NCBI GenBank assembly: GCA_902523665.1
Contig: CABZAD010000002.1
Coordinates: forward strand, 6,263-70,262
Length of the DNA stretch: 64,000 bases
Direction of reading: 5' to 3'
Source of the DNA: an uncultured Bacteroidota bacterium
GTDB lineage: Bacteria > Bacteroidota > Bacteroidia > Flavobacteriales > Flavobacteriaceae
Shown in pieces: positions 45,721 to 63,170 of this stretch. The notes beneath the pieces are model-generated. The model saw only the letters and a list, made by a program, of their open reading frames with translations, was not told the origin of the DNA and did not search any database. The position numbers and the translations under genes were made by a program. The first letter of the stretch is position 1. Each line of letters opens with the position of its first letter.

Positions 45721-46752
45721 TTATAGCTCAATCCAATTATCATTTTTTAATGACCATTCAACAACTTGTTTTATTCGTTCTGTCAGCTTAATTGAGGGGA
45801 TCCAGCCTAATTTTTTCATTTTTTCTCCTGAAAGTGAGTATCTAAGATCATGACCAGGTCTGGAAGAGTGAAAGTCAACCATTTCATACTTTAATTCTTT
45901 TCCCTGAGAAGTTGCAATTATTTTTGCAAGCTCAAGATTATTAAGCTCTTCAGAACCTACGATGTTAAACTTTGGGCATTTAGCACCACCAAAGTCTAGA
46001 TTATAATCAATATTGTTAATTAAAAGAAAATATACAGCTTCAGCAACATCCTCAGCATGAATGTAGTGACGTGAACCTGGAATTTTTCTGGTTTTGTCTG
46101 AGTGAATTGTTACAGTTTCACCATCTCTTATTTTTTTAATACACATTGGTATAAATTTTTCTGGATGCTGTCTTTCTCCAAAAACGTTCATGGTATGGGT
46201 AACATAAACAGGAAGTCTATAAGTATTCTCATAAGCTACTGCTAATTCCTCACCCCCAGCTTTTGTTGCACTATATGGATTTGTTGAGTTATATCTATCA
46301 TTTTCTTTGTAATCAACTCCTTTAGGTGCAGGACCAAATACTTCATCAGTACTAAAATATATAAACCTCTCAAGTCCTTTTTTATCATTAATATATCTTG
46401 CATAATCCAATATGTTAGCTGTTCCTACAACATTATCTAAAACAAATTCCATTGGATAATCAATACTTCTGTCTACATGAGATCCTGCAGCCAAATGAAG
46501 TATAATGTCTATATCTCCTATTTCTTTTTTCATCCATGGATTTATTTCAGATTTTAAATCATGAAATACAACTTTAACCCTTTGTTTTTCTTTAGTTGAA
46601 AGTAGAGAAAGAATACTATCAAGCCTATTGAGATTGCCACTATAGTCAAGCCTATCTAAAGAAACGATACTCCAGTCAGTATTTTTAATTAAAAAATAAA
46701 TTAAATGATGTGAAATAAACCCTGCTCCTCCTGTTATTAAAACTTTTTTCAA
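45721..46752 (-). CDS. NDP-sugar 4,6-dehydratase-like extended SDR (dTDP-glucose 4,6-dehydratase family)
   Basis: TGGAGFISHH Rossmann motif and catalytic YSATK. 343 aa. Confidence 0.7.
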   Translation of the reverse strand: MKKVLITGGAGFISHHLIYFLIKNTDWSIVSLDRLDYSGNLNRLDSILSLLSTKEKQRVKVVFHDLKSEINPWMKKEIGDIDIILHLAAGSHVDRSIDYPMEFVLDNVVGTANILDYARYINDKKGLERFIYFSTDEVFGPAPKGVDYKENDRYNSTNPYSATKAGGEELAVAYENTYRLPVYVTHTMNVFGERQHPEKFIPMCIKKIRDGETVTIHSDKTRKIPGSRHYIHAEDVAEAVYFLLINNIDYNLDFGGAKCPKFNIVGSEELNNLELAKIIATSQGKELKYEMVDFHSSRPGHDLRYSLSGEKMKKLGWIPSIKLTERIKQVVEWSLKNDNWIEL

Positions 46753-46755
46753 ATT

Positions 46756-47607
46756 TTATAAATTTTTAATATAATCCTTTAATCTATCTTTAGGAGTCCA
46801 ATTTAATAATTTTATTGAATCATCATTCTCCCTTAATGTAATTCTATAATTTCCGGGTTGATCAGGAATATAATTGGATTTAACATCAAACCTTTCTTTA
46901 AAGTAATCAAAAAGTGTATTTATACTATAATTAATACCTGTCCCTAATTCCCATGCATCTTTATGATTCAAATCTGAAAAAGCAATTTTTCTGAGGCCAT
47001 CGACTAAATCTAAAACATGGATAAAATCTCTTCTTTGCTCTCCATCTCCAACTATTGGGAGAGGTTCACCCTTAATAATTTTTGCTTTCCAGATACCAAT
47101 TACATTTCCAAATTGTTCATCAGCATTTTCCCCAGGTCCGTAAACATTGTAGAATCTTGCAATTTCAACGTTGATGTTATAAGAGGTTTTATATAATTTA
47201 CAAATTTCTTCTCCTAAATACTTATACATTGCATAGGGAGAATCAGATGGGTTATGATGTTTTGATGATGATCCGGCGTAAATAATTTTTGTATTATTTT
47301 TTTTTGACCATTCAAGAACTTTTGATGTACCGATTACATTTACTCTTAATGACTCTTCAGGATCATGAAAAGAAGGTTGAACTCTAGATTGAGCAGCCAA
47401 ATGAAAACAAAAATCAAAATCATTATCTATTTTATGGATATTGATAATATCATCATCAATATATTTTACATTTTCAATTTGATTATTGACTGAACCTGTA
47501 GAATAATTGTCTATAGAAACAATTTCAAAGTCATCATTTTTTTTTAATTCTTTAATTAAATTAGAACCGATGAAACCTACACCTCCGGTAACTAAAACTT
47601 TTTTCAC
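46756..47607 (-). CDS. NAD-dependent epimerase/dehydratase (extended SDR)
   Basis: TGGVGFIGSN Rossmann motif and YAMYK catalytic pair. 283 aa. Confidence 0.7.
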   Translation of the reverse strand: MKKVLVTGGVGFIGSNLIKELKKNDDFEIVSIDNYSTGSVNNQIENVKYIDDDIINIHKIDNDFDFCFHLAAQSRVQPSFHDPEESLRVNVIGTSKVLEWSKKNNTKIIYAGSSSKHHNPSDSPYAMYKYLGEEICKLYKTSYNINVEIARFYNVYGPGENADEQFGNVIGIWKAKIIKGEPLPIVGDGEQRRDFIHVLDLVDGLRKIAFSDLNHKDAWELGTGINYSINTLFDYFKERFDVKSNYIPDQPGNYRITLRENDDSIKLLNWTPKDRLKDYIKNL

Positions 47608-47613
47608 AACAAG

Positions 47614-49038
47614 CTAGTTTGATTTAAGGTTAATATAACCAAGAACACCTGTGGATTCTCCAACATAATAGATTCTGTTTAAATTACTGTTGAATGAAAT
47701 ATCTCTAATTCTTTCACCAACATTATACTTTCTAATCATCTCTAAGGAATCTTCAATAAGATCATATCTATAATGTATTAAATGTTTTGCCAGAGGTCTC
47801 TCAGATTGATCATTACCAAGAGTTGAGAGAAAAAATTCAAAACTCTCCTTTTTCTCTTTAATTAATTTTACCTCTGATACAGCTGGGTTTTTTTCAAAGT
47901 ATTTAATTGGTTCTACAAAACCATAATCATTATGAGATTTATATATAGGTGCACCTTTTATTATTCTTGACTCATCTCCACCATGAGCATCAGTTTTTGC
48001 ATTTTCAATTGAATAATGAATCCCATATGAAGCTATTGGCCAACCAAAGTTTTGAGTTTCATCAGTTTTATTATTAAAATTAATTTCGTCCCCTCCAGCA
48101 GGTCCATGCTCAGATGATAAAATATAGTTGTATTTTTTGGAGTAGTCAAGTCCTTGGGGATTTCTATGACCATATGATACTATTCTTGATTTTCCATCCT
48201 TTTTATTGATAGCAATTATTTTACCATTATCTAAATTTAAATTTTGAGCACTTGATCTCTCTCTAAAATCTCCCATTGAGAATAGAAGTGAATCTTTCTT
48301 ATAACTTGTAATCCTTCCACCAGATTGAACAGGAGAAAATTCCTTTATTTTAGAGGATATAAAATTTTTTGGAGAGAAAAAATTTTCAAAAGTTAAGCTA
48401 TCAGAAATTTGTGATTTTACTATTGATGTGTTATAGCTATTATCTTCTCCTCTTGAAAGATAAGAAACATAAATTTGGTCGTTATCAATAAAAATATCTT
48501 TAATACCAAACTTTGATATAGTATAAGAATTAAAATAATTGACAGATGCATTTTTTTCAATAAATTCCTCGTTTAAAAAGCTTGAAATATTACTTTTTAC
48601 CGGGTTAAAATTTAGTTCATTATCATTTAAATCAATTAAAAAGAACATACCATTTTTTGTTACATAGAATAGATTTTGCTTATAAAAATCAATATATGCA
48701 GTATTTACTTCATCAAATCCAATGCCAGGAAAAAATGGGGGTAACTTAAAATGATTTAGATTATTTTTTTTTGATAAATTAACGGAAAATACATAATCAT
48801 TATTGTTAATGAAACTAGCAATATCTTTATATTGATCTTTAAGTTTAATCTCATATTTATAAAACCCAAAATCTTTCCCAGTTAAAATATTCTTTAACCA
48901 GCTTAACCTTAGATATACTTTCTCAGGGATATTATCTCTAACTATAACTTTAAGGGGTGATTGAAATACAAAAATTAAAATTATTAGAGATATTAAAGCT
49001 GAAAATAAAACTCTTATAATCCTTCTATTTTTAAACAT
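47614..49038 (-). CDS. Membrane-anchored GSDH-type (soluble glucose/sorbosone dehydrogenase-like) beta-propeller protein
   Basis: N-terminal TM anchor (VLFSALISLIILIFVF). Family motifs YGHRNPQGL, SEHGPAGGDEINF, NFGWP. Confidence 0.65.
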   Translation of the reverse strand: MFKNRRIIRVLFSALISLIILIFVFQSPLKVIVRDNIPEKVYLRLSWLKNILTGKDFGFYKYEIKLKDQYKDIASFINNNDYVFSVNLSKKNNLNHFKLPPFFPGIGFDEVNTAYIDFYKQNLFYVTKNGMFFLIDLNDNELNFNPVKSNISSFLNEEFIEKNASVNYFNSYTISKFGIKDIFIDNDQIYVSYLSRGEDNSYNTSIVKSQISDSLTFENFFSPKNFISSKIKEFSPVQSGGRITSYKKDSLLFSMGDFRERSSAQNLNLDNGKIIAINKKDGKSRIVSYGHRNPQGLDYSKKYNYILSSEHGPAGGDEINFNNKTDETQNFGWPIASYGIHYSIENAKTDAHGGDESRIIKGAPIYKSHNDYGFVEPIKYFEKNPAVSEVKLIKEKKESFEFFLSTLGNDQSERPLAKHLIHYRYDLIEDSLEMIRKYNVGERIRDISFNSNLNRIYYVGESTGVLGYINLKSN

Positions 49039-49963
49039 ATTTCTTGTAATTAATGAATAGCAAATATACCAATATAATCGTCAGCAAAATTGAAAAAAAT
49101 AGTTTAGAATTAATTTTTAAAAAACTAAGAAATAGTTTAGGGAACTGATATAGTTGAACAGCCATTTTAGAGTATTTGTCTGTGTCATTTAATTCTCCAG
49201 ATTTTAAATTAATAAAATCAATGTTAATGTCAGGGCCAATATCAATCTTAATACCAATACTATGCTGATTATTTCCTAATCCAGATGCTAATAGATTAAA
49301 ATTGTTTTCTTTATGGTAAAATGCATAAGGTGTATAATCAAATGCACCAATATCACCTGCTATAAAATAAAAAGGAATTTGTTGATGATTATATTTATTA
49401 TAAAGTCTTCTATAAAGATTATTACCAAAATCATAAAACTTTCTTGAATTAACTCTTACAAACCAATCTGTTTCAGAAAAAATTAATTGGTGGGTAAATA
49501 TTATAATTGACTTAGGGTTTTGATTAATTATTACCTCATCTATGAAATTCATATACTGATCAATTTCTAAATTATTTTCTTTAGAAGTGTTTAAATAAAA
49601 TAAAAGTGACTCATTGACTAATTCATAATAAAAGTTTATTGGATTTCTTGACAATTTAAAAATAGAATTACAGTTATCATGATTTCCAATTACAAATTCT
49701 ACATTATTATTGACATAAAAACTTTCTAAGTTATTGAGTTCAACCATATTATTACAATCATAAATAAAGTCTCCTCCAAGAACTATTTTAGAGTAATTAT
49801 TTTTTTGTAAATGACTCAAAAAAATTGGGTCTAGATTATTATCTAGTTTACTATGTGAGCCATATGCATGCCCAACAAATAAAAATTCCTTGGAACTTAC
49901 CTGAGCATTAGCGTTACTAATAAATACTATTAGAAAAAGTAGTTTGAGATATACCCTTAACAT
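49031..49963 (-). CDS. Calcineurin-like metallophosphoesterase with signal peptide and C-terminal TM anchor
   Basis: Signal LLFLIVFISNANA. Metal motifs FVGHAYG, GGDFIYD, GNHD. C-terminal helix FFSILLTIILVYLLF. Confidence 0.7.
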   Translation of the reverse strand: MLRVYLKLLFLIVFISNANAQVSSKEFLFVGHAYGSHSKLDNNLDPIFLSHLQKNNYSKIVLGGDFIYDCNNMVELNNLESFYVNNNVEFVIGNHDNCNSIFKLSRNPINFYYELVNESLLFYLNTSKENNLEIDQYMNFIDEVIINQNPKSIIIFTHQLIFSETDWFVRVNSRKFYDFGNNLYRRLYNKYNHQQIPFYFIAGDIGAFDYTPYAFYHKENNFNLLASGLGNNQHSIGIKIDIGPDINIDFINLKSGELNDTDKYSKMAVQLYQFPKLFLSFLKINSKLFFSILLTIILVYLLFINYKKYV

Positions 49964-50591
49964 ATTTTGAATATCTGGTGAAAGATAGTTTTTTTAATTT
50001 ATTGAAGAAATTTACTTCCTTGTTATATTTAACCTCAATAATTATAATTTTTTCTTTAAAATTTATTTTTGTAATAGGTGAATAAAAAAATAAACCTGAA
50101 TCAATTGTTAACCTTAATCCCATTAATTTGTTTTCAAAATACATTCTCTGATATGAATTTAATAAAGTAGGCCTTCTATTAGAAATTTTTCTATATAATT
50201 CAAAATTTTTGAGATTTTTGAGCTCTAAAAGAACATTTGAGTGAAAATCATAAATATTATCTAAACTTTTTAATTTCATTAAATTAAGGTTACAATATTT
50301 TTTAGAGTTCAAAAATTCATCTTTAATTTTTATTTCAAGAACTTTATTGGAGTTATCAAATAATTTTGAATACCATCTAACCCTATATTTATTTCTTTTG
50401 GAAAGACCATCAAAATTATGATTTACTGAAGAAAAGTTATAATCATCAAAATAAATATTATTTACCCTTCTATCGGAAAAGGATTTTATATATCCCAATG
50501 AATATAATTGGGATATAAATTTTGGTAGATAATTTTTTTCTACAATATATTTTCTTTCATACCTAAATTTTTTATTCTGATGCTCTACCAT
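49917..50591 (-). CDS. VTC-domain / triphosphate-tunnel (polyphosphate-polymerase-like) protein
   Basis: FRYERKYIV near the N-terminus. Alternating charged beta-strand motifs YRVRWY, LEIKIKD, LRLTIDS, IIIEVKY. C-terminal RYSKYVKG. Start placed at the internal ATG 50591; the ORF is open to 50651, but that start would overlap the CotH gene by 80 nt. Confidence 0.6.
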   Translation of the reverse strand: MVEHQNKKFRYERKYIVEKNYLPKFISQLYSLGYIKSFSDRRVNNIYFDDYNFSSVNHNFDGLSKRNKYRVRWYSKLFDNSNKVLEIKIKDEFLNSKKYCNLNLMKLKSLDNIYDFHSNVLLELKNLKNFELYRKISNRRPTLLNSYQRMYFENKLMGLRLTIDSGLFFYSPITKINFKEKIIIIEVKYNKEVNFFNKLKKLSFTRYSKYVKGISQTTFSNSIY

Positions 50592-52653
50592 ATAAATTTC
50601 CATATAATTTTGATTCAACATTCGACGTAAAAAAAATAGAATCTTTCCCAATTATTTTTGAATTTTTTTCTATTAAATAATTATCAATTTTAGTGTTCAC
50701 AAAGGTTGTTTGACTTGGTCCAAAGTACTGTTTTTTTATAAATGATGAGAAATCAATCTTATTATTTTTAATAATGCTTGAAGTTATACTAACATTTGAG
50801 GCATCTTTAGATACAATAGCAATTTCATTTGCGATAAATGAACTATTAGAAATTAAAAACGTACTTCTTTCACCAGCACTAACAGCTTTATCATATACCT
50901 CAGAAAATTCTGAATTGTTTATTATTACATTACTTCCTGATCCATCCACTCCATCATTACCAATATTTTTGAACTCTGAGTTAGTTATAGTAAGGCTTGA
51001 AAAATCTGAATCAATTGCATCATTAATTATATTATTAAATAAAGAGTTTTTAATAACAATATTTTTGGATCTAAAGAAATTTAAAAAATCATCACCATTT
51101 AAATTCTGACTGAAAACAGAATTTAAAATATTTATTGATGCACATTCATAAAAAGTAATAGCAGCAGGTTGATCGAAAACTGATAGATTATTACTTAAAG
51201 ATTTAAAGATTACGTGATTTATATTAATTTGCTCTTGTGAATTAAAAAAGATAGTCCCAAGTCTATTTGTACCATAAATTTTAATAGGGCTTGAAGAAGA
51301 TCCGATAGCTTGAAACCCTCCATAGATTTTCATGTAAGCATTATCCAACTTCACAGTTACTCCTTCCTCTATAATTAATTTTTGATTTGAAGAAACAATA
51401 AATTTACCAGTAATTAATGTGTCCTTGGTGATTTTTAATATTTCACGATCCTTTTGTTGATAATCATAAGTTTTATCTAGAATTTCCTTTTTTACAAACT
51501 CAATATTTTCAAGAAATATTTTTTCTCTTTTTTGAATTTGATTTGAAAATCCAAGCATTTTATTTTTTAAATCAATATATGATTTATCAGATTTAATGGA
51601 CTTCTGTATTTCATCAAGCTCTTCTTTTAATTCATGTAATATTTGGTTTTCTAGTTTCTGATCGTATATTTTTTTTATTAACTTATTATTATTTGCTATC
51701 GCATCTAAATTAAATTTTTCAAATTTTTTGATAAACCCTTCTCTAAAGGTTGGTTCAATTAAATTATTAACTGGATTGTAATACCAATGGAGATTAATAT
51801 CACTAAAGGCATGCTCATCATTAATTAGTAATCCAAGCTTAATTATGTTTTTTATTTTAGTCCTATCAATTTTATTAGCAAATGAATCAATATCATAATA
51901 AAAAAGCTGCTCAAGCCGAAAAGCAGTTGATTCTAAAGAATTATCATCTCCCGTATAGTTGAATTTTATAGAATCGTTTATAATTTCAAATAATACAGAT
52001 TCTCTTCTTTTATTTTTTTCTATTAAATATTTATCAAAAAAATCTTCCTGATATAAAATCCCATAATTTGCTTTATTTAAAATAATTCTGTAAGGTCTAT
52101 AATTTATACCTATCCCATTATATAAGTTAGAATATATTATATTTACTAGAGGATCTGTTATAAAGTCTCTCGATCTAGGGTTCAAAAAATTAACCTTTTT
52201 ATTTCCAAAACCTAATTCACCATCAAATTTTACTCTAAAGCTATGTCCATTAACATCTCTAAAATGATCAGGGTTTAGACCAAAGAGTCTAATTTCAGCC
52301 TCAGTTTCATTTTTACCATCAGTTAGAATGGATTTATAATAGAGATTATCACCAGACCACTGATTTCCTGTAAAGACATAATTATTTACCATTTTTGATC
52401 TTTCCTTTTGTAGCTTAACATAATTATTAGGTGATAAAGAAAATGACAAGGTTTTAATGCTATTATTATCTAGAAAATTTATAAACTCTGCCTTATCATT
52501 TAAGTATTTGACATAAAGTGAGCCAAGATTAACAGTTATCATAGATCTGTAGAGTATTTCCCTTTGAAAATATCCAATGGTAATCAAAAAAATAGAAAAA
52601 ATAAGAATTAAAGAGATTGAAATAAATCGCTTTGGTTTTTTTGAATATTTCAT
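50572..52653 (-). CDS. CotH kinase-family protein with N-terminal TM anchor and C-terminal right-handed beta-helix repeats
   Basis: Anchor FISISLILIFSIFLITIGYF. CotH-like core (IRLFGLNPDHFRDVNGHSFRVKFD, YRPYRIILNKANYGILYQEDFFDKYLIEKN). Six beta-helix coils of about 22 aa (NSVFSQN, NSLFNNI, NSEFKNI, NSEFSEV, NSSFIAN, SSIIKNN). Confidence 0.7.
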   Translation of the reverse strand: MKYSKKPKRFISISLILIFSIFLITIGYFQREILYRSMITVNLGSLYVKYLNDKAEFINFLDNNSIKTLSFSLSPNNYVKLQKERSKMVNNYVFTGNQWSGDNLYYKSILTDGKNETEAEIRLFGLNPDHFRDVNGHSFRVKFDGELGFGNKKVNFLNPRSRDFITDPLVNIIYSNLYNGIGINYRPYRIILNKANYGILYQEDFFDKYLIEKNKRRESVLFEIINDSIKFNYTGDDNSLESTAFRLEQLFYYDIDSFANKIDRTKIKNIIKLGLLINDEHAFSDINLHWYYNPVNNLIEPTFREGFIKKFEKFNLDAIANNNKLIKKIYDQKLENQILHELKEELDEIQKSIKSDKSYIDLKNKMLGFSNQIQKREKIFLENIEFVKKEILDKTYDYQQKDREILKITKDTLITGKFIVSSNQKLIIEEGVTVKLDNAYMKIYGGFQAIGSSSSPIKIYGTNRLGTIFFNSQEQININHVIFKSLSNNLSVFDQPAAITFYECASINILNSVFSQNLNGDDFLNFFRSKNIVIKNSLFNNIINDAIDSDFSSLTITNSEFKNIGNDGVDGSGSNVIINNSEFSEVYDKAVSAGERSTFLISNSSFIANEIAIVSKDASNVSITSSIIKNNKIDFSSFIKKQYFGPSQTTFVNTKIDNYLIEKNSKIIGKDSIFFTSNVESKLYGNLYGRASE

Positions 52654-53324
52654 TCTGAAGAAGAAAAAAATTGAATTTCTCTTTTATTAATTTTTTTACT
52701 ATCTAAGAAAGCTTCAACAATATTTAGTTTATCAAGATTAAAATCTGACAGTTTAAATACTACAACGATATTTTTTTCTTGCTTACTTATACTTTGAATC
52801 TCAACATTAACTCCCTCATCTGTTAAATTTTTTGCTAAACTATGTATATCATTATTAGATATCTTTTCAACTGAAATAACCAATTGATCATTTATTGAGT
52901 GAATAGATTCTAAATTTTTTGCTTTTTGATAATAGTTATATACAAAAACAAATAAAACTAGTATTAGAGGAAAGAAATATGAACCAGCTGCAGTTGCAAT
53001 AGCAACTCCAGTTAAGATTAAAAAATAAACGATCTGCTCAGCCTCTTTGATAGCAGTCCTGAATCTTATAATAGAGAGAGCACCTACTAGGCCAAGAGAC
53101 AACACAATACTTGATTTTATAGTAATTACAATTAGAAATATAGATACACCGAAAAGGGGAAAAATATTAGCAATTAAAGATTTGTTAGATACAGAATCAG
53201 AATATTTAATGTAAATTAATCTTAATAATAATGATAAAAATACAGTAACTATAAATCCAATTAAAAATTGAGAAAGGCTTGTTGAAGAAAGCTCTAGATT
53301 ACTAAAATCCATTAAATCATTCAT
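52650..53324 (-). CDS. DUF4956-like integral membrane protein with a C-terminal soluble domain
   Basis: About 4 TM segments, a conserved-looking SIIRFRTAIKEAEQIVYF motif, and a C-terminal hydrophilic domain of about 90 aa. Overlaps the CotH start by 4 nt. Confidence 0.55.
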   Translation of the reverse strand: MNDLMDFSNLELSSTSLSQFLIGFIVTVFLSLLLRLIYIKYSDSVSNKSLIANIFPLFGVSIFLIVITIKSSIVLSLGLVGALSIIRFRTAIKEAEQIVYFLILTGVAIATAAGSYFFPLILVLFVFVYNYYQKAKNLESIHSINDQLVISVEKISNNDIHSLAKNLTDEGVNVEIQSISKQEKNIVVVFKLSDFNLDKLNIVEAFLDSKKINKREIQFFSSSE

Positions 53325-53338
53325 ACTACTTTTACTAA

Positions 53339-53346
53339 CAAATCTA
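53339..53346 (-). promoter_or_regulatory. Candidate -7 promoter box (TAGATTTG) for the DUF4956-CotH-VTC operon
   Basis: Exact TAnnTTTG on the minus strand, 14 nt upstream of the ATG at 53324. This implies a very short leader. Confidence 0.25.
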
Positions 53347-53548
53347 TTATATTATATACTAAAATGCAATTTATGTCAATTCTATGCTTAGAATTAAATT
53401 ACTCATGCATAATTAAAAAATGTAACACTATAATCTTTGAGATGTTGAACCAATGCAAAGTGGTTTAAGCCATAGATATCCCAATAGTTTATTAATTAAT
53501 GAAATTATAGTTGAAGCAAATAATTTAAGTTTAGGAACCTTTGACCTT

Positions 53549-54760
53549 TTATTTCTTAAAAAGATTAAATAATTGAGTTTTTCTAATATTTGAAGAGAAG
53601 TTCAATTTATAAAAATTATGTCCGTTTTTTCCCATATCATTTAATTCAGAATTATTTAAACTAATGAATTTTACTATTTTGTTAACAAACATGCTAATAT
53701 CATTATTTTCATCAGTAATACCACAATTTGACTTCTTAATAATATCTGCACCTTCTCCACCTAAAAGACCAATTATTGGCTTACCTATTGCAAGATATGA
53801 TTGCAATTTAGCAGGCACAGTTTTAGAAAATAAGGGGGTATTTTTGATTGATAAAAACATTGCATCAGCAATGCTACAATAATTAGGAATTTCAGAAACC
53901 GGCACTTGATTTACAAATGAACATAAACTACCAAGTCCAAGTTTATTGATTTCTTTTATAAAAGTTTGCTTTGAGGTACCCTCACCTATAAATATCCAGT
54001 GAATTTTTTGATTTTTTAAACCATTAATAAGTTTTAATACGTTTTTAAAGCCTTGAGCTAGTCCAATGTTTCCAGTATATAAAATTGTAAAGTGTCCTTT
54101 GGGAATATTTAAATTTATTTGTTCTGTAATTAAATTTTTTTCTATTTGAATTTCTGCCCAATTGGGAAAGTAAATTATCTCTTTATTAAATCTTTCCTTA
54201 ACAATTTCTTTAAATCCATGAGAACCTATTAAAATTTTATCATAAAAACTGTAAATACATTTTACAAAATACTCTAAAATGTTAATTAATATTCCTGATT
54301 TTATTATCTCTAAATTTTTAAGAGTATCTGGCCACAAATCAAGATCCCACAAAAACATTTTAGTTTTAAAAAATATTTTATAGATAATTGGACTAATTGC
54401 AATTAGAATGGGACTAGTGTGATGTACAAAAATAAAATCATATTTTCTCTTGAATAACATTAAATATATTGTAAAGAAGAATGTTGATATAAAAAATGAG
54501 GTATAATTAAAAATTCTTCTAAAATAATTACCATTACCTCTGGGAATTAATGGCAACCTATTAATAACTACATTTTTTTTTTCGTGTGACTCAAAAGATT
54601 TTAATCCATAACCTTTATAAAATTTTCCACCTGAATAATTTGGTATACATGTGATAACCCTAATATGGAATTCAGAAGATGATAGCCAATCAACAATTTC
54701 ATTAATTTTGAATTGTTCAGGAAAATAATGGTTAGTGTAAATTAAGATTCTTTTTGCCAA
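53549..54760 (-). CDS. wbuB: GT4 glycosyltransferase, WbuB-like (L-FucNAc transferase type)
   Basis: N-terminus ILIYTNHYFPEQFKINE. 403 aa. Lies directly after the fnlABC-type genes and overlaps fnlC by 19 nt. Confidence 0.7.
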   Translation of the reverse strand: MAKRILIYTNHYFPEQFKINEIVDWLSSSEFHIRVITCIPNYSGGKFYKGYGLKSFESHEKKNVVINRLPLIPRGNGNYFRRIFNYTSFFISTFFFTIYLMLFKRKYDFIFVHHTSPILIAISPIIYKIFFKTKMFLWDLDLWPDTLKNLEIIKSGILINILEYFVKCIYSFYDKILIGSHGFKEIVKERFNKEIIYFPNWAEIQIEKNLITEQINLNIPKGHFTILYTGNIGLAQGFKNVLKLINGLKNQKIHWIFIGEGTSKQTFIKEINKLGLGSLCSFVNQVPVSEIPNYCSIADAMFLSIKNTPLFSKTVPAKLQSYLAIGKPIIGLLGGEGADIIKKSNCGITDENNDISMFVNKIVKFISLNNSELNDMGKNGHNFYKLNFSSNIRKTQLFNLFKK

Positions 54761-55887
54761 ACTACTCGATTTACATAGTCAATATATGATAGGATTATTC
54801 TTTCGACCTTTAATGAAACGTTTGGAACATTATATTCATTTACTATATTGAAATTTCTATTCTTTCCAGTAATCTGATTTTGAATTAAATCAATACCATT
54901 TCTAATTCTTTTCATACCTAGACCAGTAATTACTGTAGTAGCCTGTTCAATAGCCTCAGGTCTTTCATGTGATTCTCTGAGATTTAGTGATTTGAAGTTT
55001 AATATTGATGACTCCTCAAAAATTGTCCCACTGTCTGATAAAACAACAAAAGATTCGATCTGTAATTTACAATAATCCGAAAAGCTTAATGGTTTAATCA
55101 CTTTTACTAACTTATTCAATTTATGATTAATATTATCAATTTTTTTTCTAGTTCTTGGATGCATTGGAAATATGACAGGAATTTTATGTTCTGTGCACAA
55201 TTCATTTAATGAATTAATTAATAATTTCAAATTTGAAATATTATCTACATTTTCTTCACGGTGACAGGAAACTAAAAAGTATTTTCTTGACTTTAAGGAT
55301 AAAGTATCAAGTATTTTTGAATTATCAATTTTGTTCTTGTTTTCAGATATGACCTCATACATTGGTGAACCTATATTAATAACTCTATCTGGCATAATCC
55401 CCTCAAGTATAAGATAGTCTCTAGCAATTTTGCTATATGTTAGATTTATATCAGAAATGTGATCTACTATTTTTCTGTTTGACTCTTCTGGGACTCTTTG
55501 ATCAAAACATCTATTACCAGCCTCAAAATGAAAAATTGGTATTTGCTTTTTCTTAGCAACTATGCTTGATAGACAACTATTTGTATCACCAAGAATAAAA
55601 AATGCATCAGGTTTAAGTTCATCTAATAAATCGTCTATTTTGATTAAAATATTACCTATAGTTTTCGAAGGAGAATTATCTGCAGATTCTAAAAATATTT
55701 TTGGTTTAGGTAAGTCTAGGTCTTTAAAAAAAATCTCATTTAGTTCATAGTCAAAATTTTGACCAGTATGAATAAGATAATGATCAAATACCTCAGATTT
55801 TTCAAAGCGTTTTATAATTGATGAAAGCCTTATTATTTCAGGTCTAGTTCCAACTACAGTTACTAATTTAATTTTTTTGTTACTCAT
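54742..55887 (-). CDS. fnlC: UDP-N-acetylglucosamine 2-epimerase (non-hydrolysing), FnlC/CapG type
   Basis: VVGTRPEIIRLS N-terminal motif, 381 aa, third gene of the trio. Confidence 0.85.
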   Translation of the reverse strand: MSNKKIKLVTVVGTRPEIIRLSSIIKRFEKSEVFDHYLIHTGQNFDYELNEIFFKDLDLPKPKIFLESADNSPSKTIGNILIKIDDLLDELKPDAFFILGDTNSCLSSIVAKKKQIPIFHFEAGNRCFDQRVPEESNRKIVDHISDINLTYSKIARDYLILEGIMPDRVINIGSPMYEVISENKNKIDNSKILDTLSLKSRKYFLVSCHREENVDNISNLKLLINSLNELCTEHKIPVIFPMHPRTRKKIDNINHKLNKLVKVIKPLSFSDYCKLQIESFVVLSDSGTIFEESSILNFKSLNLRESHERPEAIEQATTVITGLGMKRIRNGIDLIQNQITGKNRNFNIVNEYNVPNVSLKVERIILSYIDYVNRVVWQKES

Positions 55888-55901
55888 TTAGCATATCTAA
55901 T

Positions 55902-57008
55902 TTAAACATTTTCAATATAGGTATCAGAAGTTTTATCTTCATAATGTTCATTTATCCAAAACGTTGTTATTAATTCATCATTACCAATATTTTGAATATT
56001 GTGAGTATTCCATATTGGAATGTCTATATACGATGGGGATTCCTCACTAAGCTCAAACTCAGCAACTTCCTCAGAAAGCACCTCTCTTAATTTAATTAAT
56101 GCTTTTCCTTTTATTACAGAGAATCTTTCTACTTTTCTAGTGTGAAAATGATTACCTCTTATTTCATTTCTTCCTGTAATAGACACTGATGATTGTCCAC
56201 TGGAATTAGATCTGATTAGTTCAGTAAAACTACCTCTATTATCTTCATGAACTTTATATTTTTTTGGAAAAAATTCTTTAATATCTATGTAAGACATAAA
56301 GGTGTTAAATAAACTAAGCTTAAAATATGAATCTAAATTAGGATAAGTACCATTCTTAATGTAAGTCTCATTAAACATATCTAGTAGCCTTAACACTTCA
56401 CTTACTTTCTTTTGATTGATTAGGTCTGTCAATATAATTTTATCACTAGATTCAATAGATTCAATTAGCTTAGATATAAGATCATTAACATATAATAGCG
56501 GAATATTTTTATCTTCTTTTATTTCATTCTTTTTTGAATGAATAATATTATAACAAAATGAAGCAATAAATGAATTATAATTTGGTTTACAGAAGGGACC
56601 ATATAAGTTTGGTAAAATTAAACCATGGAATACATAACCAAGTTTTTTTGACTGATCTAAAAATTTTACCCTTGCATTTTTTTTAGCGATTCCATATTTT
56701 GTATTAAAATTCTCTTGAATTGATGATGAAAAAAATAATTTACCAGAAAATTTTGTTTTTTCAAGAGCCTTAAACAATATATTATTAATATGCTCGTTTT
56801 TTTCTAAAACAGCTTCATCACTTATATCTCTATTAACACCTGCAAAATGAAAAATTATATCATCACTTTTTATTTTATTATTAAGGTTTGCAGATTTAAA
56901 GTCAGATTTTGTTAGAAAAATTATTGAATAACTATGATTAACTGTGAGTAGGCCTCTTTGTAGGTGACTTCCCAAAAAACCTTTATGACCTGATATTAAA
57001 ACTCTCAA
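55902..57008 (-). CDS. fnlB: FnlB/CapF-type bifunctional reductase/epimerase (SDR domain plus C-terminal cupin)
   Basis: 368 aa with an N-terminal SDR-like half and a C-terminal cupin (RGNHFHTRKVERFSVIKG). Sits between the fnlA-like and fnlC-like genes. Confidence 0.75.
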   Translation of the reverse strand: MRVLISGHKGFLGSHLQRGLLTVNHSYSIIFLTKSDFKSANLNNKIKSDDIIFHFAGVNRDISDEAVLEKNEHINNILFKALEKTKFSGKLFFSSSIQENFNTKYGIAKKNARVKFLDQSKKLGYVFHGLILPNLYGPFCKPNYNSFIASFCYNIIHSKKNEIKEDKNIPLLYVNDLISKLIESIESSDKIILTDLINQKKVSEVLRLLDMFNETYIKNGTYPNLDSYFKLSLFNTFMSYIDIKEFFPKKYKVHEDNRGSFTELIRSNSSGQSSVSITGRNEIRGNHFHTRKVERFSVIKGKALIKLREVLSEEVAEFELSEESPSYIDIPIWNTHNIQNIGNDELITTFWINEHYEDKTSDTYIENV

Positions 57009-57018
57009 ATGAATAATT

Positions 57019-58020
57019 TTATGATTTTAAATCACTTTTAATTTCTTCAAGATTCAATAATAATTTTTTCATTTCTTCGACATTTAACATATTTGTATTA
57101 TTTGAATTATACTCATTAATTTGTATTTCTGTTTTACCCTTTGAAAAATATTTGTCATAATTTAAATCTCGACCATCAGGAACTATTTTATAATAATTAC
57201 CAAGATCTTCTGAAGAACTCATCTCTTCCTTTGTTACTAGAGTCTCATACATTTTTTCACCATGTCTAACTCCAATATATTTAATTTTAGAAGAAGAATT
57301 ATAGATGCTTATTAATGCTTTAGCAACGGTTTCAATAGTTGCTGACGGGGATTTTTGAACAAAAATATCTCCATTATTTGCATTTTCAAAAGCATGATTT
57401 ACTAGATTAACAGCATCATCTAAACTCATCATAAATCTAGTCATTTCAGGACTTGTTAGCGTTAAGTCTTGTTTGTTTTTTATTTGTTTTATAAATAAAG
57501 GGATAACTGAACCTCGAGATGCCATAACATTTCCATACCTTGTTCCACAAAAGATTGTATTTTTAATATCAAGATTTCTGGAATTAGAAATCATTACTTT
57601 TTCCATTAAAGCTTTTGACATTCCCATGGCATTAATTGGATATGCTGCCTTATCAGTACTTAAAACAACAAGCTTTTTAATGTTGTTTCTTTTTGCTAGA
57701 GTTAATACATTATTGGCTCCAATTATATTAGTTTTTACTGCTTCAATAGGAAAAAATTCACAAGATGGTACCTGCTTTAATGCAGCTGCGTGAAACACAT
57801 AGTCAACATTATAAATTGCCGGCTCAATTGAGTTGATATCCCTTACGTCACCTAAATAAAATTTAACTTTAGGAGAGTCAATAAGTTTCCTTAGATCATC
57901 CTGTTTCTTTTCATCCCTTGAAAAAATTCTAATTTCACTAAAATTATTGTTTTTGAACTGTTTATTAAGGAACGCTTTACCAAAAGAACCTGTCCCACCT
58001 GTTATTAATAGCTTGCTCAT
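57019..58020 (-). CDS. fnlA: UDP-GlcNAc 4,6-dehydratase/5-epimerase, FnlA/CapE type
   Basis: MSKLLITGGTGSFG ... EIRIFSRDEKKQDDLRK ... FYLGDVRD is near-canonical CapE/FnlA. Start placed at ATG 58020; the ORF is open to 58041. Confidence 0.9.
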   Translation of the reverse strand: MSKLLITGGTGSFGKAFLNKQFKNNNFSEIRIFSRDEKKQDDLRKLIDSPKVKFYLGDVRDINSIEPAIYNVDYVFHAAALKQVPSCEFFPIEAVKTNIIGANNVLTLAKRNNIKKLVVLSTDKAAYPINAMGMSKALMEKVMISNSRNLDIKNTIFCGTRYGNVMASRGSVIPLFIKQIKNKQDLTLTSPEMTRFMMSLDDAVNLVNHAFENANNGDIFVQKSPSATIETVAKALISIYNSSSKIKYIGVRHGEKMYETLVTKEEMSSSEDLGNYYKIVPDGRDLNYDKYFSKGKTEIQINEYNSNNTNMLNVEEMKKLLLNLEEIKSDLKS

Positions 58021-58061
58021 GAAAATAATGTGTATTAACAAATATATCGATAATATTTATA

Positions 58062-58069
58062 TATTTTTG
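58062..58069 (+). promoter_or_regulatory. Candidate -7 promoter box (TATTTTTG) for the formyltransferase-deacetylase pair
   Basis: Exact TAnnTTTG 36 nt upstream of the ATG at 58106. Confidence 0.3.
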
Positions 58070-58105
58070 ATAACTGCAAATGATTGAAATCTTGATGATA
58101 ATTTT

Positions 58106-62865: not shown

Positions 62866-62874
62866 TTTTTATAT

Positions 62875-63165: not shown

Positions 63166-63170
63166 AGTTT

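What the first reader, a model, noticed from the sequence alone, without database searches (positions are those of the whole stretch)
47614..53324. Uncharacterised five-gene module: DUF4956 membrane protein, anchored CotH kinase/beta-helix, VTC polyphosphate-polymerase-like tunnel protein, anchored metallophosphoesterase, anchored GSDH beta-propeller
Seen: five genes on the minus strand are chained by overlaps: DUF4956/CotH 4 nt, CotH/VTC at least 20 nt, VTC/phosphoesterase 47 nt, phosphoesterase/propeller 8 nt. Two SDR genes follow after gaps of 6 and 3 nt. The string is separated from the rest of the polysaccharide locus by the largest non-coding gap in the window (224 bp). Established: the VTC domain is the catalytic triphosphate-tunnel domain of the eukaryotic vacuolar polyphosphate polymerase Vtc4, which couples polyP synthesis to translocation through a membrane channel. 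CotH proteins are atypical protein kinases, first shown for Bacillus spore coat assembly. Calcineurin-like phosphoesterases hydrolyse phosphoester and phosphoanhydride bonds. From recall only, VTC-domain, DUF4956 and CotH genes tend to be neighbours in diverse bacteria, and I know of no experimentally assigned function for them. Inference: the module looks like a trans-envelope phosphate-polymer or phosphoryl-transfer machine. A cytoplasmic tunnel enzyme would sit on a DUF4956 membrane partner, by analogy with the VTC synthase-channel logic. The periplasm-facing kinase, glycan-binding beta-helix, phosphoesterase and propeller would then use, transfer or trim the product on a cell-surface glycan or protein. 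Its position inside a capsule/O-antigen-type locus suggests phosphorylation or polyphosphorylation of a surface polymer.
Basis: partly seen in the sequence, partly recalled or inferred. Interest (0 to 1): 0.85.

Follow-up and report, generated by a model that had tools for sequence, protein, structure and literature searches.

The report
Bacterial VTC–DUF4956–CotH envelope phosphate module
A marine Flavobacteriales genome carries a tightly packed gene cassette pairing a yeast-like polyphosphate-polymerase enzyme and a membrane protein with an outward-facing kinase-like, sugar-binding protein. This trio recurs across bacteria, has been noticed before, and has never been explained biochemically.

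Summary
In detail: all ORFs, overlaps and the 224-bp gap are exact. DUF4956, VTC and GSDH pass Pfam cut-offs. Metallophos misses by 0.4 bits but keeps three of five motifs. CotH is invisible to Pfam, yet fold search, a transitive profile search and HHalign (97.7%) all support it. The conserved unit is three genes, not five: DUF4956 → CotH-like/β-helix → VTC. Both partners lie upstream of VTC in 30 of 64 Bacteroidota loci and in unrelated metagenomic lineages. The phosphoesterase recurs in 6 of 64 loci. The GSDH propeller occurs only in the two nearest relatives, and the SDR genes belong to the sugar locus. The VTC protein keeps every aligned Vtc4 triphosphate-binding residue, including the Lys that separates active Vtc4 from inactive Vtc2/3. 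The CotH-like domain faces outward, where no ATP is expected. It keeps the Asn and metal-binding acidic residue but has an invariant His where CotH has its catalytic Asp. The best-supported model is a cytoplasmic tunnel enzyme and DUF4956 membrane partner supplying polyphosphate to an extracytoplasmic phosphotransferase acting on a surface glycan. That model is inference only. The trio was already described beside Gram-positive Pel loci, with mild mutant phenotypes and no biochemistry, so this is a new variant of a known, unexplained kind.

The parts
53351..53379 (-). Promoter-like site in the 224-bp gap: TTGACA-17 nt-TATAAT. A TAGATTTG element (resembling the Bacteroidota -7 motif TAnnTTTG) lies just upstream of the DUF4956 ATG.
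   Evidence: This is the only 12/12 consensus match in 45.5-54 kb, and the sequence was read directly. Function is inferred. The Bacteroidota -7 consensus comes from my own knowledge.
52650..53324 (-). DUF4956 membrane protein (224 aa). It has five predicted TM helices (17-41, 48-69, 73-90, 95-112, 117-137) and a C-terminal ferredoxin/ACT-like domain (146-220). The universally conserved motif is K70-SS-xx-LSLGLVGALSIIRFRTAIKE.
   Evidence: Pfam PF16316 scores 47.1 bits. Residues 55-106 are invariant across 25 homologues of 61-83% identity. The motif is conserved in 39 sequences down to 34% identity. AF2 pLDDT is 76. Foldseek finds only weak ACT/S6-like hits to the soluble domain. The Pfam MgtC match is E 0.97, not significant.
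50572..52653 (-). Signal-anchored CotH-like/beta-helix protein (693 aa). It has an N-terminal TM helix (residues 10-28) with an N-in/C-out orientation.
   Evidence: ORF. No Pfam hit. AF2 pLDDT 87, pTM 0.84. Hydropathy shows +5 net charge before the TM helix.
51664..52452 (-). CotH-like alpha/beta domain (residues ~68-330), followed by a long helical linker (332-394). H281 aligns with B. subtilis CotH D228, N287 with N233, and E305 with D251.
   Evidence: Foldseek 5jda/5jd9 E 9e-11, probability 1.00. 41 of 52 distant relatives match PF08757. HHalign 97.7%. The roles of D228 and D251 come from PMC7821199.
50650..51444 (-). Right-handed parallel beta-helix (CASH-type) domain, residues ~404-668.
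   Evidence: AF2 secondary structure. Foldseek hits to alginate lyase 6kfn, AlgG 4ozy/4nk6, polygalacturonases and tailspikes. 32% identity to the Lutimonas 572-aa protein. 9 of 52 relatives match PF13229.
49917..50621 (-). VTC-domain triphosphate-tunnel protein (234 aa from ATG 50621; alternative starts at 50651, 50603 and 50591). It has no TM segment and is predicted to be cytoplasmic. K24, R80, R82, K98, Y157, R159, S218 and K219 correspond to Vtc4 K200, R264, R266, K281, Y359, R361, S457 and K458.
   Evidence: Pfam PF09359 scores 73.2 bits over 1-233/235 of the model. These residues are invariant in 21 homologues. A profile search of the PDB hits Vtc2/3/4. Numbering was verified. Residue roles come from bioRxiv 10.1101/2023.01.27.525886.
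49031..49963 (-). Divergent metallophosphoesterase (310 aa) with an N-terminal signal peptide and a C-terminal TM anchor (286-304). It is a recurrent accessory of the module.
   Evidence: Pfam Metallophos scores 21.1 bits against a cut-off of 21.5. Family motifs are GH / GGD / GNHD / H / GDxG, and distant homologues are lipoproteins. Hydropathy. It is present near VTC in 6 of 64 loci.
47614..49038 (-). Signal-anchored GSDH-type beta-propeller (474 aa). This is a lineage-specific addition, not part of the conserved core.
   Evidence: Pfam PF07995 scores 116.7 bits. Nearest solved relative is E. coli YliI 2g8s, E 1e-17. It follows the module only in L004 and L005 and is absent in L003.
45721..47607 (-). 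Two SDR sugar-nucleotide epimerase/dehydratase genes that are probably co-transcribed. They are context from the polysaccharide locus, not part of the module.
   Evidence: Pfam and NCBIfam hits. In L003 the orthologous SDR pair sits with GT1 and L21/L27, separated from the module by four opposite-strand genes.

Best explanation
The core is a three-protein, trans-inner-membrane phosphate-polymer and phosphoryl-transfer system, transcribed from its own promoter as one tightly packed operon.

Step 1 (residues shown, activity inferred): the cytoplasmic VTC-domain protein is an active Vtc4-type triphosphate-tunnel enzyme that makes polyphosphate from ATP.

Step 2 (inferred by analogy only): DUF4956 has five TM helices, a cytoplasmic ACT-like domain and an invariant basic RFRTAIK motif at the predicted cytoplasmic end of TM3. 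It docks the tunnel enzyme and passes the polymer, or its phosphoryl groups, across the inner membrane. This would play the role of the Vtc transmembrane channel without being homologous to it.

Step 3 (location predicted, chemistry inferred): the signal-anchored CotH-like domain sits outside the cytoplasm, where no ATP is expected. It uses the exported phosphoanhydride donor to phosphorylate or polyphosphorylate a glycan held by its fused beta-helix domain. An invariant His replaces the canonical catalytic Asp, so the chemistry may differ from that of Bacillus CotH.

Step 4 (inferred): the periplasmic metallophosphoesterase trims or removes phosphate. The GSDH propeller and SDR genes are local additions tied to this genome's L-FucNAc-type surface-polysaccharide locus.
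For: The Vtc4 catalytic residues K200, R264, R266, K281, Y359, R361, S457 and K458 all have invariant counterparts. These include K458, which is Ile/Leu in the inactive Vtc2/3. The order DUF4956 -> CotH-like/beta-helix -> VTC is conserved. Both partners lie upstream of VTC in 30 of 64 Bacteroidota loci. The trio also occurs in 41-46% GC lineages (L085, L087, L088) and in Gram-positive Pel loci and C. perfringens NELoc-2. Topology: VTC has no TM segment; CotH and GSDH are N-in/C-out signal anchors; MPE has a signal peptide, and its distant homologues are lipoproteins. The S. intermedius CotH homologue is predicted to be secreted. The CotH fold and homology are supported, with the N233 and D251 equivalents conserved. 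The beta-helix resembles glycan-processing enzymes. Eight loci insert a second tunnel enzyme (CYTH) between DUF4956 and CotH, which points to tri- or polyphosphate chemistry. The module recurs independently in polysaccharide loci: the window (FnlA/B/C-type genes and glycosyltransferases), Lutimonas (Wzx/Wzy), L087 (Wza-Wzc-Wzy-Wzx with five CotH paralogues) and Pel loci. Deleting the DUF4956-type or CotH gene in S. intermedius changes Pel levels and halves aggregation. The DUF4956 membrane core is under extreme constraint.
Against: No activity has been measured for any bacterial member. Basic tunnel residues are shared among tunnel enzymes generally, so their conservation does not prove polymerase rather than triphosphatase activity. 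The Mn2+ ligand E426 is mapped only at motif level. DUF4956 shows no similarity to the Vtc channel, and its membrane part has no solved analogue. About 25 loci have 'solo' VTC genes with no DUF4956 or CotH nearby. The canonical CotH catalytic Asp is absent, being His here and Thr/Ala in other VTC-linked CotH paralogues, so the domain could be inactive. Most Bacteroidota modules are not in polysaccharide loci. The S. intermedius VTC deletion had no reported phenotype. The tight VTC juxtaposition is not specific to CotH. The loci set was found with a narrow peptide pattern and is biased towards Bacteroidota.
Confidence: 0.36

Rival explanations
1. Polyphosphate export is the end in itself. VTC plus DUF4956 deposit polyP in the periplasm or on the cell surface, for phosphorus storage, cation binding or a pseudo-capsule. 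The CotH-like/beta-helix protein only tethers or caps the polymer, and the phosphoesterase mobilises it.
For: The VTC catalytic set is intact. Many modules sit outside polysaccharide loci, which fits a self-sufficient function. The canonical CotH catalytic Asp is missing. A periplasmic phosphoesterase recurs. The host is a streamlined marine Flavobacteriales genome, a lifestyle where phosphorus economy matters (own knowledge).
Against: The CotH-like domain keeps the N233 and D251 equivalents and many invariant polar residues, which argues for catalysis. The beta-helix resembles glycan-binding enzymes and carries conserved acidic residues that are poorly suited to binding a polyanion. The CotH gene expansions inside the Wzx/Wzy locus L087 and the Pel link point to glycan substrates.
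Confidence: 0.2
2. The beta-helix is the real catalyst, acting as a polysaccharide lyase, epimerase or hydrolase. The CotH-like domain is a pseudokinase scaffold. VTC and DUF4956 handle cytoplasmic phosphate or energy homeostasis in an MgtC-like manner and are only loosely coupled to it.
For: Foldseek matches AlgG epimerase, alginate lyases, polygalacturonases and tailspikes. The beta-helix has strongly conserved D/E/K/S motifs across roughly 1,800 cluster representatives. The catalytic Asp of CotH is absent. DUF4956 shares the MgtC-like layout of TM helices plus an ACT-like domain.
Against: The fixed gene order DUF4956-CotH-VTC is maintained across distant lineages. In Gram-positive bacteria CotH is fused to FN3 instead of a beta-helix, yet the trio persists, so CotH is the constant partner and the beta-helix is not. 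The Pfam MgtC match is not significant. I did not see the AlgG DPHD motif when reading the sequence by eye (own reading, not a formal test).
Confidence: 0.15
3. This is a regulatory module. The CotH-like protein is a Ser/Thr protein kinase that controls envelope or polysaccharide machinery, as proposed for Pel loci. The VTC protein makes or degrades a small polyphosphate or nucleotide signal.
For: Bacillus CotH is a protein kinase. Whitfield et al. proposed that it regulates Pel by phosphorylation. The S. intermedius mutants change Pel amounts in opposite directions, which resembles regulation. The DUF4956 ACT-like domain could bind a small ligand.
Against: The predicted extracytoplasmic location leaves no ATP donor (absence of periplasmic ATP is own knowledge). 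The catalytic Asp is missing. The fusion to a glycan-type beta-helix and the multiplication to five paralogues within one export locus are unusual for a regulator.
Confidence: 0.12
4. The five-gene chain is an accident of genome streamlining. The genes are adjacent and overlapping only because the whole genome is compact, and they have no shared function.
For: The window is compact throughout, with 64 ORFs in 64 kb and short gaps. GSDH and the SDR genes are not conserved with the module. The small stop-to-motif distance also occurs with unrelated upstream genes.
Against: The three-gene core keeps its order in 30 of 64 loci and in other lineages and phyla. The cassette DUF4956-CotH-VTC-MPE moves as a block relative to its neighbours, as seen by comparing L003 with the window.
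Confidence: 0.05

Closest known systems
cotH / polyphosphate-polymerase (VTC) / DUF4956 accessory gene set of Gram-positive Pel loci (Whitfield et al. 2020, PMC7112168; S. intermedius SIR_1592-1594, PMC12345266)
   Same: It has the same three families as neighbours: a TM + ACT-like DUF4956 protein, a cytoplasmic VTC-domain protein and an exported CotH-like protein. It is associated with an exopolysaccharide locus, and its function is unknown.
   Different: The window's version is in Bacteroidota and is not next to pel genes. CotH is fused to a beta-helix rather than FN3, and is membrane-anchored rather than secreted. The gene order is DUF4956-CotH-VTC. DUF4832 was not seen among the genes scanned. 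A periplasmic metallophosphoesterase and a GSDH propeller are added. The 2025 paper states that the trio was not found outside Pel loci. The window, the 29 Bacteroidota modules whose flanks were scanned, and L087/L088 contradict that.
Eukaryotic VTC complex (Vtc4 catalytic tunnel domain with the Vtc1/2/3/4 transmembrane channel)
   Same: It matches the same Pfam family (PF09359). All aligned triphosphate-binding residues are conserved, including K458. A cytoplasmic synthase is encoded next to a membrane protein.
   Different: There is no SPX domain and no fused transmembrane domain, as Pfam finds only VTC. The partner is DUF4956, which has five TM helices plus an ACT-like domain and is unrelated to the Vtc channel. 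The target compartment is the periplasm rather than a vacuole. Polymerase activity is untested.
Bacillus CotH spore-coat protein kinase (PDB 5JD9/5JDA)
   Same: It shares the atypical kinase fold (Foldseek E 9e-11; HHalign 97.7% over 297 columns). The Asn233 and metal-binding Asp251 equivalents are conserved as N287 and E305.
   Different: Identity is 14-17%, and the Pfam model does not detect it. Catalytic Asp228 aligns with an invariant His (H281). The protein is extracytoplasmic and membrane-anchored, is fused to a beta-helix, and has no spore context.
C. perfringens NELoc-2 (VTC - 22x-aa membrane protein - VTC - membrane protein - CotH, near a chitin-synthase-like glycosyltransferase; PMC2879425)
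   Same: VTC-domain genes alternate with ~225-aa cytoplasmic-membrane proteins, followed by CotH, beside a polysaccharide synthase.
   Different: The membrane proteins there are annotated 'tubulin/FtsZ GTPase'. I infer that they are DUF4956-like, but I did not test this. The pair is duplicated around a resolvase, in a Gram-positive pathogen locus.
MgtC family (TM domain + ACT-like C-terminal domain)
   Same: The overall layout is similar, with several TM helices followed by a small ferredoxin/ACT-like soluble domain. The S. intermedius authors call their homologue MgtC-like.
   Different: The Pfam MgtC match is E 0.97, far below threshold. There is no evidence of ATP-synthase or PhoR interaction.

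Membership tests
VTC domain / Vtc4-type polyphosphate polymerase tunnel (PF09359) | Matches the family profile above the curated threshold over its full length | tested here: met
   73.2 bits against a cut-off of 23, covering profile positions 1-233 of 235. A profile of 21 homologues hits Vtc2/3/4 in the PDB.
VTC domain / Vtc4-type polyphosphate polymerase tunnel (PF09359) | Triphosphate-binding residues K200, R264, R266, K281, Y359, R361, S457 and K458, with K458 distinguishing active Vtc4 from Vtc2/3 | tested here: met
   K24, R80, R82, K98, Y157, R159, S218 and K219 are invariant in 21 homologues and align to these positions.
VTC domain / Vtc4-type polyphosphate polymerase tunnel (PF09359) | Mn2+-binding Glu (E426) | tested here: inconclusive
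   The invariant E196 in 'IIIEVKY' pairs with Vtc3 'SVMEIKV' only in a non-significant alignment.
VTC domain / Vtc4-type polyphosphate polymerase tunnel (PF09359) | SPX domain and fused Vtc-type transmembrane channel (the VTC complex architecture) | tested here: not met
   The protein is 234 aa, Pfam finds only the VTC domain, and there is no TM segment.
VTC domain / Vtc4-type polyphosphate polymerase tunnel (PF09359) | Synthesises polyphosphate from ATP | not testable with these tools
   This needs an enzyme assay.
CotH kinase (PF08757) | Matches the family profile | tested here: not met
   There is no Pfam hit at E<=10 and no sequence or profile hit to PDB CotH.
CotH kinase (PF08757) | CotH atypical-kinase fold and remote homology | tested here: met
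   Foldseek 5jda E 9e-11, probability 1.00, TM-score (target) 0.58. 41 of 52 distant relatives match PF08757. HHalign 97.7%, E 2e-12.
CotH kinase (PF08757) | Catalytic Asp (B. subtilis D228; the D228Q mutant is inactive) | tested here: not met
   It aligns with the invariant H281 (the alignment is uncertain by 1-2 residues). Other VTC-linked CotH paralogues have Thr or Ala there.
CotH kinase (PF08757) | Asn233 and the metal-binding Asp251 | tested here: met
   N287 is invariant. E305 is invariant, and the wider family has Asp in 'EPIxxD'.
CotH kinase (PF08757) | Protein kinase activity with ATP | not testable with these tools
   This needs an enzyme assay.
DUF4956 (PF16316) | Matches the family profile above threshold | tested here: met
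   47.1 bits against a cut-off of 30.6. All 120 listed homologues carry PF16316.
MgtC (PF02308) | Matches the family profile | tested here: not met
   E 0.97, 10.2 bits against a cut-off of 31.4. Only the general TM + ACT-like layout is shared.
Calcineurin-like metallophosphoesterase (PF00149) | Matches the family profile above threshold | tested here: inconclusive
   21.1 bits against a cut-off of 21.5. The orthologue in L003 scores 17.2 bits.
Calcineurin-like metallophosphoesterase (PF00149) | Five metal-binding motifs: DxH / GDxxD / GNH[DE] / H / GHxH | tested here: inconclusive
   GGD, GNHD and H are conserved. Motif I is GH, with no Asp, and motif V is GDxG.
GSDH / soluble PQQ sugar dehydrogenase propeller (PF07995) | Matches the family profile above threshold | tested here: met
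   116.7 bits against a cut-off of 25. E. coli YliI 2g8s matches at E 1e-17. PQQ binding was not tested.
Pel-associated cotH/VTC/DUF4956 accessory set | The three families are encoded as immediate neighbours | tested here: met
Pel-associated cotH/VTC/DUF4956 accessory set | Contiguous with pelDEADAFG | tested here: not met
   The neighbouring genes are FnlA/B/C-type, WcaI-like and GT4 glycosyltransferases, a formyltransferase, a deacetylase and a NeuB-like synthase. No pel-type naming was returned for the genes scanned.

The most novel reading that the evidence does not exclude
Bacteria have their own counterpart of the eukaryotic VTC machine. A Vtc4-type tunnel polymerase docks on a DUF4956 membrane conduit that is not homologous to the Vtc channel. 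The exported polyphosphate is the phosphoryl donor for a large family of extracytoplasmic CotH-like phosphotransferases, which carry His in place of the catalytic Asp and decorate surface glycans. This would solve the problem of how phosphorylation can occur outside the cytoplasm, where there is no ATP.
Probability: 0.28. Interest if true: 0.88.

Novelty: new variant of a known kind. Interest (0 to 1): 0.64.

Why it matters
If the model holds, there would be three consequences. First, bacteria would have a third route to polyphosphate besides PPK1 and PPK2. It would use the eukaryotic Vtc4 chemistry, and would be coupled to export across the membrane. Second, it would explain how an outward-facing kinase-like enzyme is supplied with phosphoryl groups where there is no ATP. 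Third, it would assign a role to three large 'dark' families. DUF4956 gave 3,191 hits in one search. The CotH-like/beta-helix family has 1,808 cluster representatives. The module recurs beside capsule, O-antigen and Pel loci, including those of pathogens, so it could reveal an unrecognised phosphate modification of bacterial surface polymers. Even without the mechanism, this window shows that the trio is not restricted to Gram-positive Pel loci, contrary to a statement in the 2025 S. intermedius paper. It also defines a compact four-gene cassette with its own promoter, which would suit heterologous expression.

Tried and rejected
1. Direct detection of CotH and Beta_helix by Pfam at E<=10, NCBIfam, phmmer against the PDB and a family profile against the PDB all gave nothing.

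2. The first HHalign runs, with low-diversity profiles, failed or gave 0.2% probability. They succeeded only after I added distant relatives.

3. A Foldseek search of the DUF4956 model found no analogue for the membrane part, only weak ACT/S6-like hits. MgtC membership is rejected at the sequence level.

4. I considered the CotH/VTC gene overlap as evidence of specific translational coupling. I rejected it because solo VTC genes are equally tight against unrelated upstream genes.

5. I tested whether the module is systematically embedded in polysaccharide loci. It is not, because the flanks are heterogeneous.

6. I looked for a riboswitch or RNA element in the 224-bp gap and the module. There was no Rfam match at E<=1, and no convincing internal terminators.

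7. An attempt to map E426 with a C-terminal sub-profile gave only a non-significant alignment.

8. Literature searches for any biochemical characterisation of bacterial VTC, DUF4956 or CotH-with-polyP found none. The library holds only open-access papers and preprints, so absence is not proof.

9. The 515-aa protein that precedes the beta-helix protein in Lutimonas and Psychroserpens has no Pfam or BLAST similarity to the window protein. Its identity was left unresolved.

Full report
**1. The observation**

The five minus-strand ORFs are at the stated coordinates.
- The overlaps are DUF4956/CotH-like 4 nt, VTC/phosphoesterase 47 nt and phosphoesterase/propeller 8 nt.
- The CotH-like/VTC overlap is 20, 32, 50 or 80 nt, depending on which of four in-frame starts is used (50591, 50603, 50621, 50651). 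Homologues are 220-234 aa, which favours 50621 or 50591.
- The two SDR genes follow after gaps of 6 and 3 nt.
- The 224-bp interval 53325-53548 is the largest ORF-free gap in the window. The next largest is 132 bp.
- The window is compact everywhere, so packing alone is not remarkable. The conserved synteny described in section 3 is what exceeds chance.

**2. What each gene is**

Three domain calls pass Pfam's curated thresholds:
- DUF4956: 47.1 bits against a cut-off of 30.6
- VTC: 73.2 bits against 23
- GSDH: 116.7 bits against 25

*Metallophosphoesterase.* It misses the threshold by 0.4 bits (21.1 against 21.5).
- An alignment of 12 homologues from related loci shows conserved GGD, GNHD and His motifs.
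- Motif I is GH rather than DxH, and motif V is GDxG rather than GHxH.
- I treat it as a divergent metallophosphoesterase.
- It has a signal peptide and a C-terminal anchor. Its distant homologues are lipoproteins, so it is consistently extracytoplasmic.

*The 693-aa 'CotH/beta-helix' protein.* It gave no Pfam hit at E<=10 and no sequence or profile hit in the PDB. Three independent approaches rescued the assignment.
1. An AlphaFold2 model (pLDDT 87, pTM 0.84) matches B. cereus CotH kinase best (5jda, E 9e-11, probability 1.00). It next matches right-handed beta-helix carbohydrate enzymes: alginate lyase, AlgG epimerase, polygalacturonases and tailspikes.
2. A profile of residues 60-400 found 1,808 cluster representatives among 1.84 billion proteins. 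Of 52 distant ones, 41 match Pfam CotH and 9 match Beta_helix.
3. HHalign of the diversified family against B. cereus and B. subtilis CotH gives 97.7% probability over 297 columns.

In that alignment the equivalents of B. subtilis N233 and the metal-binding D251 are conserved, as N287 and E305.
- The wider family has Asp at the E305 position.
- The catalytic D228 aligns with an invariant His, H281.
- D228Q and D251A are the published inactive CotH mutants.
- Canonical-looking CotH paralogues that sit next to VTC genes in Saprospiraceae also lack this Asp, with Thr or Ala instead, while keeping the other two residues.

*The VTC protein.* It aligns to the Vtc2/3/4 tunnel domains. After I verified the numbering, eight residues invariant in 21 homologues correspond to Vtc4 residues:

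| Window protein | Yeast Vtc4 |
|---|---|
| K24 | K200 |
| R80 | R264 |
| R82 | R266 |
| K98 | K281 |
| Y157 | Y359 |
| R159 | R361 |
| S218 | S457 |
| K219 | K458 |

- These are the triphosphate-binding residues whose mutation lowers polyP in yeast.
- K458 is the one residue that differs in the inactive Vtc2/3.
- The Mn2+ ligand E426 probably corresponds to E196, but only at motif level.
- The protein has no TM segment, SPX domain or other domain.

*DUF4956.* The model shows five TM helices and a C-terminal beta-alpha-beta-beta-alpha-beta domain.
- Foldseek finds only weak ACT/ribosomal-S6-like matches to the soluble domain, and nothing for the membrane part.
- The Pfam MgtC match is not significant.
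- Residues 55-106 are identical in 25 homologues that otherwise diverge to 61% identity.
- Across 39 sequences down to 34% identity, the motif K70-SS-xx-LSLGLVGALSIIRFRTAIKE persists.
- By the positive-inside rule, the N-terminus faces out. The RFRTAIK motif and the ACT-like domain face the cytoplasm (inference).

*GSDH protein.* Its nearest solved relative is E. coli YliI, and it has an N-terminal signal anchor.

**3. What is conserved elsewhere**

Neighbourhoods of VTC homologues show DUF4956 -> one or two large unannotated proteins -> VTC in Lutimonas halocynthiae, a Psychroserpens MAG and a marine single-cell genome.

A scan of one genome per species found 241 relatives of this VTC subfamily, and 80 loci were retrieved. 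I called and labelled ORFs with iterated HMMs. Of the 64 loci with enough upstream sequence:

| Feature near VTC | Loci (of 64) |
|---|---|
| CotH-like gene upstream, same strand | 36 |
| Beta-helix upstream | 32 |
| DUF4956 upstream | 31 |
| Both CotH-like and DUF4956 upstream | 30 |
| Phosphoesterase within two genes | 6 |
| GSDH propeller downstream | 2 |

- The two loci with GSDH are the nearest relatives: L004 (a marine Bacteroidetes single-cell genome) and L005 (a Cryomorphaceae MAG).
- Eight loci insert a CYTH-domain protein, a second triphosphate-tunnel enzyme, between DUF4956 and CotH.
- About 25 Saprospiraceae loci have 'solo' VTC genes next to ribBA and glycosyltransferases. Four loci have two canonical-type CotH genes plus an OmpA/TSP3 protein.
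- In L003 the cassette DUF4956-CotH-VTC-MPE lies beside the AdoHcy hydrolase gene. It is separated from the GT1-SDR-SDR-L21-L27 block by four opposite-strand genes. In the window it lies between GT1 and the SDR genes. The cassette therefore moves as a block.

Distant CotH-like family members confirm the trio in other lineages.
- L087 (42% GC) reads Wza-Wzc-CotH-CotH-Wzy-Wzx-CotH-DUF4956-CotH/beta-helix-VTC-CotH.
- L088 (46% GC) reads DUF4956 -> 1006-aa protein -> VTC.
- L085 and L086 read DUF4956 -> CotH.

**4. Context in the window**

The module lies in a low-GC (24-26%) surface-polysaccharide locus. The locus contains:
- FnlA, an FnlB-like reductase and a WecB/FnlC-type 2-epimerase. This set resembles the UDP-L-FucNAc pathway by family assignment.
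- A WcaI-like glycosyltransferase and two GT4 enzymes.
- A formyltransferase, a deacetylase and a NeuB-like synthase.

The 224-bp gap holds the only perfect TTGACA-17-TATAAT match in 8.5 kb. It also holds a TAGATTTG element just upstream of the DUF4956 start. There is no Rfam element.

The flanks of 29 other modules are heterogeneous, with 144 Pfam families among 139 proteins. Sugar genes are a minority. Placement in a polysaccharide locus therefore recurs (the window, Lutimonas, L087, and Pel loci in the literature) but is not universal.

**5. Most likely mechanism**

*Shown:*
- The intact Vtc4-type residue set.
- The conserved three-gene order.
- The CotH fold, with two of its three catalytic-site residues conserved.
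- The glycan-enzyme-like beta-helix.

*Predicted from sequence:*
- A cytoplasmic VTC protein.
- A polytopic DUF4956.
- Outward-facing CotH-like, phosphoesterase and propeller proteins.

*Inferred:*
- The tunnel enzyme polymerises phosphate from ATP.
- DUF4956 docks it through its cytoplasmic basic face and passes the polymer outward.
- The CotH-like domain has no ATP available outside the cytoplasm (own knowledge). It would use the phosphoanhydride donor to phosphorylate a glycan held by the beta-helix.
- The phosphoesterase trims the product.
- The His at the catalytic-Asp position suggests altered chemistry, possibly a phospho-His intermediate. This last point is speculation.

I put about 0.36 on this full model. 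The main rivals are:
- polyP export as the end product (0.20);
- a beta-helix glycan enzyme with a pseudokinase scaffold (0.15);
- a regulatory protein kinase (0.12);
- chance adjacency, which remains viable only for GSDH and the SDR genes (0.05).

**6. Comparison with what is known**

The trio is not new as an observation.
- Whitfield et al. (2020) list cotH, a polyphosphate polymerase, DUF4956 and DUF4832 as accessory genes of Pel loci in streptococci and clostridia. In bifidobacterial loci a diguanylate cyclase/phosphodiesterase gene replaces DUF4832.
- The 2025 S. intermedius study found that deleting SIR_1592 (TM + ACT) or SIR_1594 (a secreted protein with CotH and FN3 domains) more than halved aggregation in sputum medium. 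The two deletions changed Pel levels in opposite directions.
- No phenotype was reported for the VTC gene, and no mechanism was established.
- That paper also states that the arrangement was not found outside Pel loci.
- C. perfringens NELoc-2 has VTC-membrane protein-VTC-membrane protein-CotH.

The window's version differs in several ways:
- it comes from a different phylum;
- it lies outside Pel loci;
- CotH is fused to a beta-helix and is membrane-anchored;
- it has the added phosphoesterase and propeller.

Relative to the eukaryotic VTC complex, only the catalytic domain is shared.

**7. Verdict**

- The five-gene boundary is too generous.
- The novelty claim needs tempering, because the trio has been noted before.
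- I rate it a new variant of a known but functionally unexplained kind, with interest 0.64.

**Caveats**
- The loci set derives from one peptide pattern and is biased towards Bacteroidota.
- ORF calls in the loci are mechanical.
- Catalytic-residue mapping onto CotH rests on a remote alignment that is uncertain by 1-2 residues.
- The literature library holds open-access papers and preprints only.

Noticed in passing
L065:1690-2589 and the equivalent genes in L035, L050, L053, L061, L066, L067 and L081: A ~300-aa CYTH-domain protein (PF01928, E 1e-6) is inserted between DUF4956 and the CotH-like gene in eight Saprospiraceae-type modules. These operons therefore encode two triphosphate-tunnel enzymes, CYTH and VTC.
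   Followed up: partly
L087:303-19029: A metagenomic contig (42% GC) reads Wza-Wzc-CotH-CotH-Wzy-Wzx-CotH-DUF4956-CotH/beta-helix-VTC-CotH. It has five CotH-like paralogues and no obvious glycosyltransferase in the 19 kb seen. This raises the question of whether CotH-like enzymes themselves build or modify the exported polymer.
   Followed up: partly
window 53339-53379 (minus strand): A perfect sigma-70 consensus (TTGACA-17-TATAAT) overlaps a Bacteroidota-style TAGATTTG -7 element about 15 nt upstream of the DUF4956 start codon. A perfect match to the E. coli-type consensus is unexpected in a Flavobacteriales genome.
   Followed up: partly
window 50489-50517: An 11-bp-stem palindrome (TATATCCCAAT...ATTGGGATATA) lies inside the 5' part of the VTC gene, about 55 nt downstream of the CotH-like stop codon. 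The scan flagged it as terminator-like on the + strand. On the mRNA strand it could form a hairpin that affects VTC translation.
   Followed up: no
window 48000-64000: The whole polysaccharide locus, including the module, has 24-28% GC, against 28-34% in most of the rest of the window. This is typical of horizontally exchanged, hypervariable surface-polysaccharide regions.
   Followed up: no
window 54742-58041: FnlA, an FnlB-like reductase and a WecB/FnlC-type 2-epimerase sit next to a WcaI/WbuB-like glycosyltransferase. This looks like a complete UDP-L-FucNAc-type pathway. It is followed by a formyltransferase, a polysaccharide deacetylase, two GT4 enzymes and a NeuB-like synthase.
   Followed up: partly
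L001:6755-8302 and L002:6740-8293: In Lutimonas and Psychroserpens, a 515-517-aa protein with no Pfam match and no BLAST similarity to the window protein sits between DUF4956 and the beta-helix protein. It occupies the position of the CotH-like N-terminal half. It may be an even more divergent CotH-like domain or a replacement.
   Followed up: partly
L031, L047, L052 and L070 (upstream of DUF4956): In the Dokdonia-type loci the module is divergently adjacent to the ATP synthase beta and epsilon genes. This is intriguing because MgtC is reported to bind the F1Fo ATP synthase. However, the four loci are closely related to each other, so this may simply be inherited synteny.
   Followed up: no
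L004:5271-6215: The nearest sequenced relative has a 314-aa opposite-strand gene between GT1 and DUF4956, exactly where the window has its 224-bp gap. The gap may be the scar of a lost gene.
   Followed up: no
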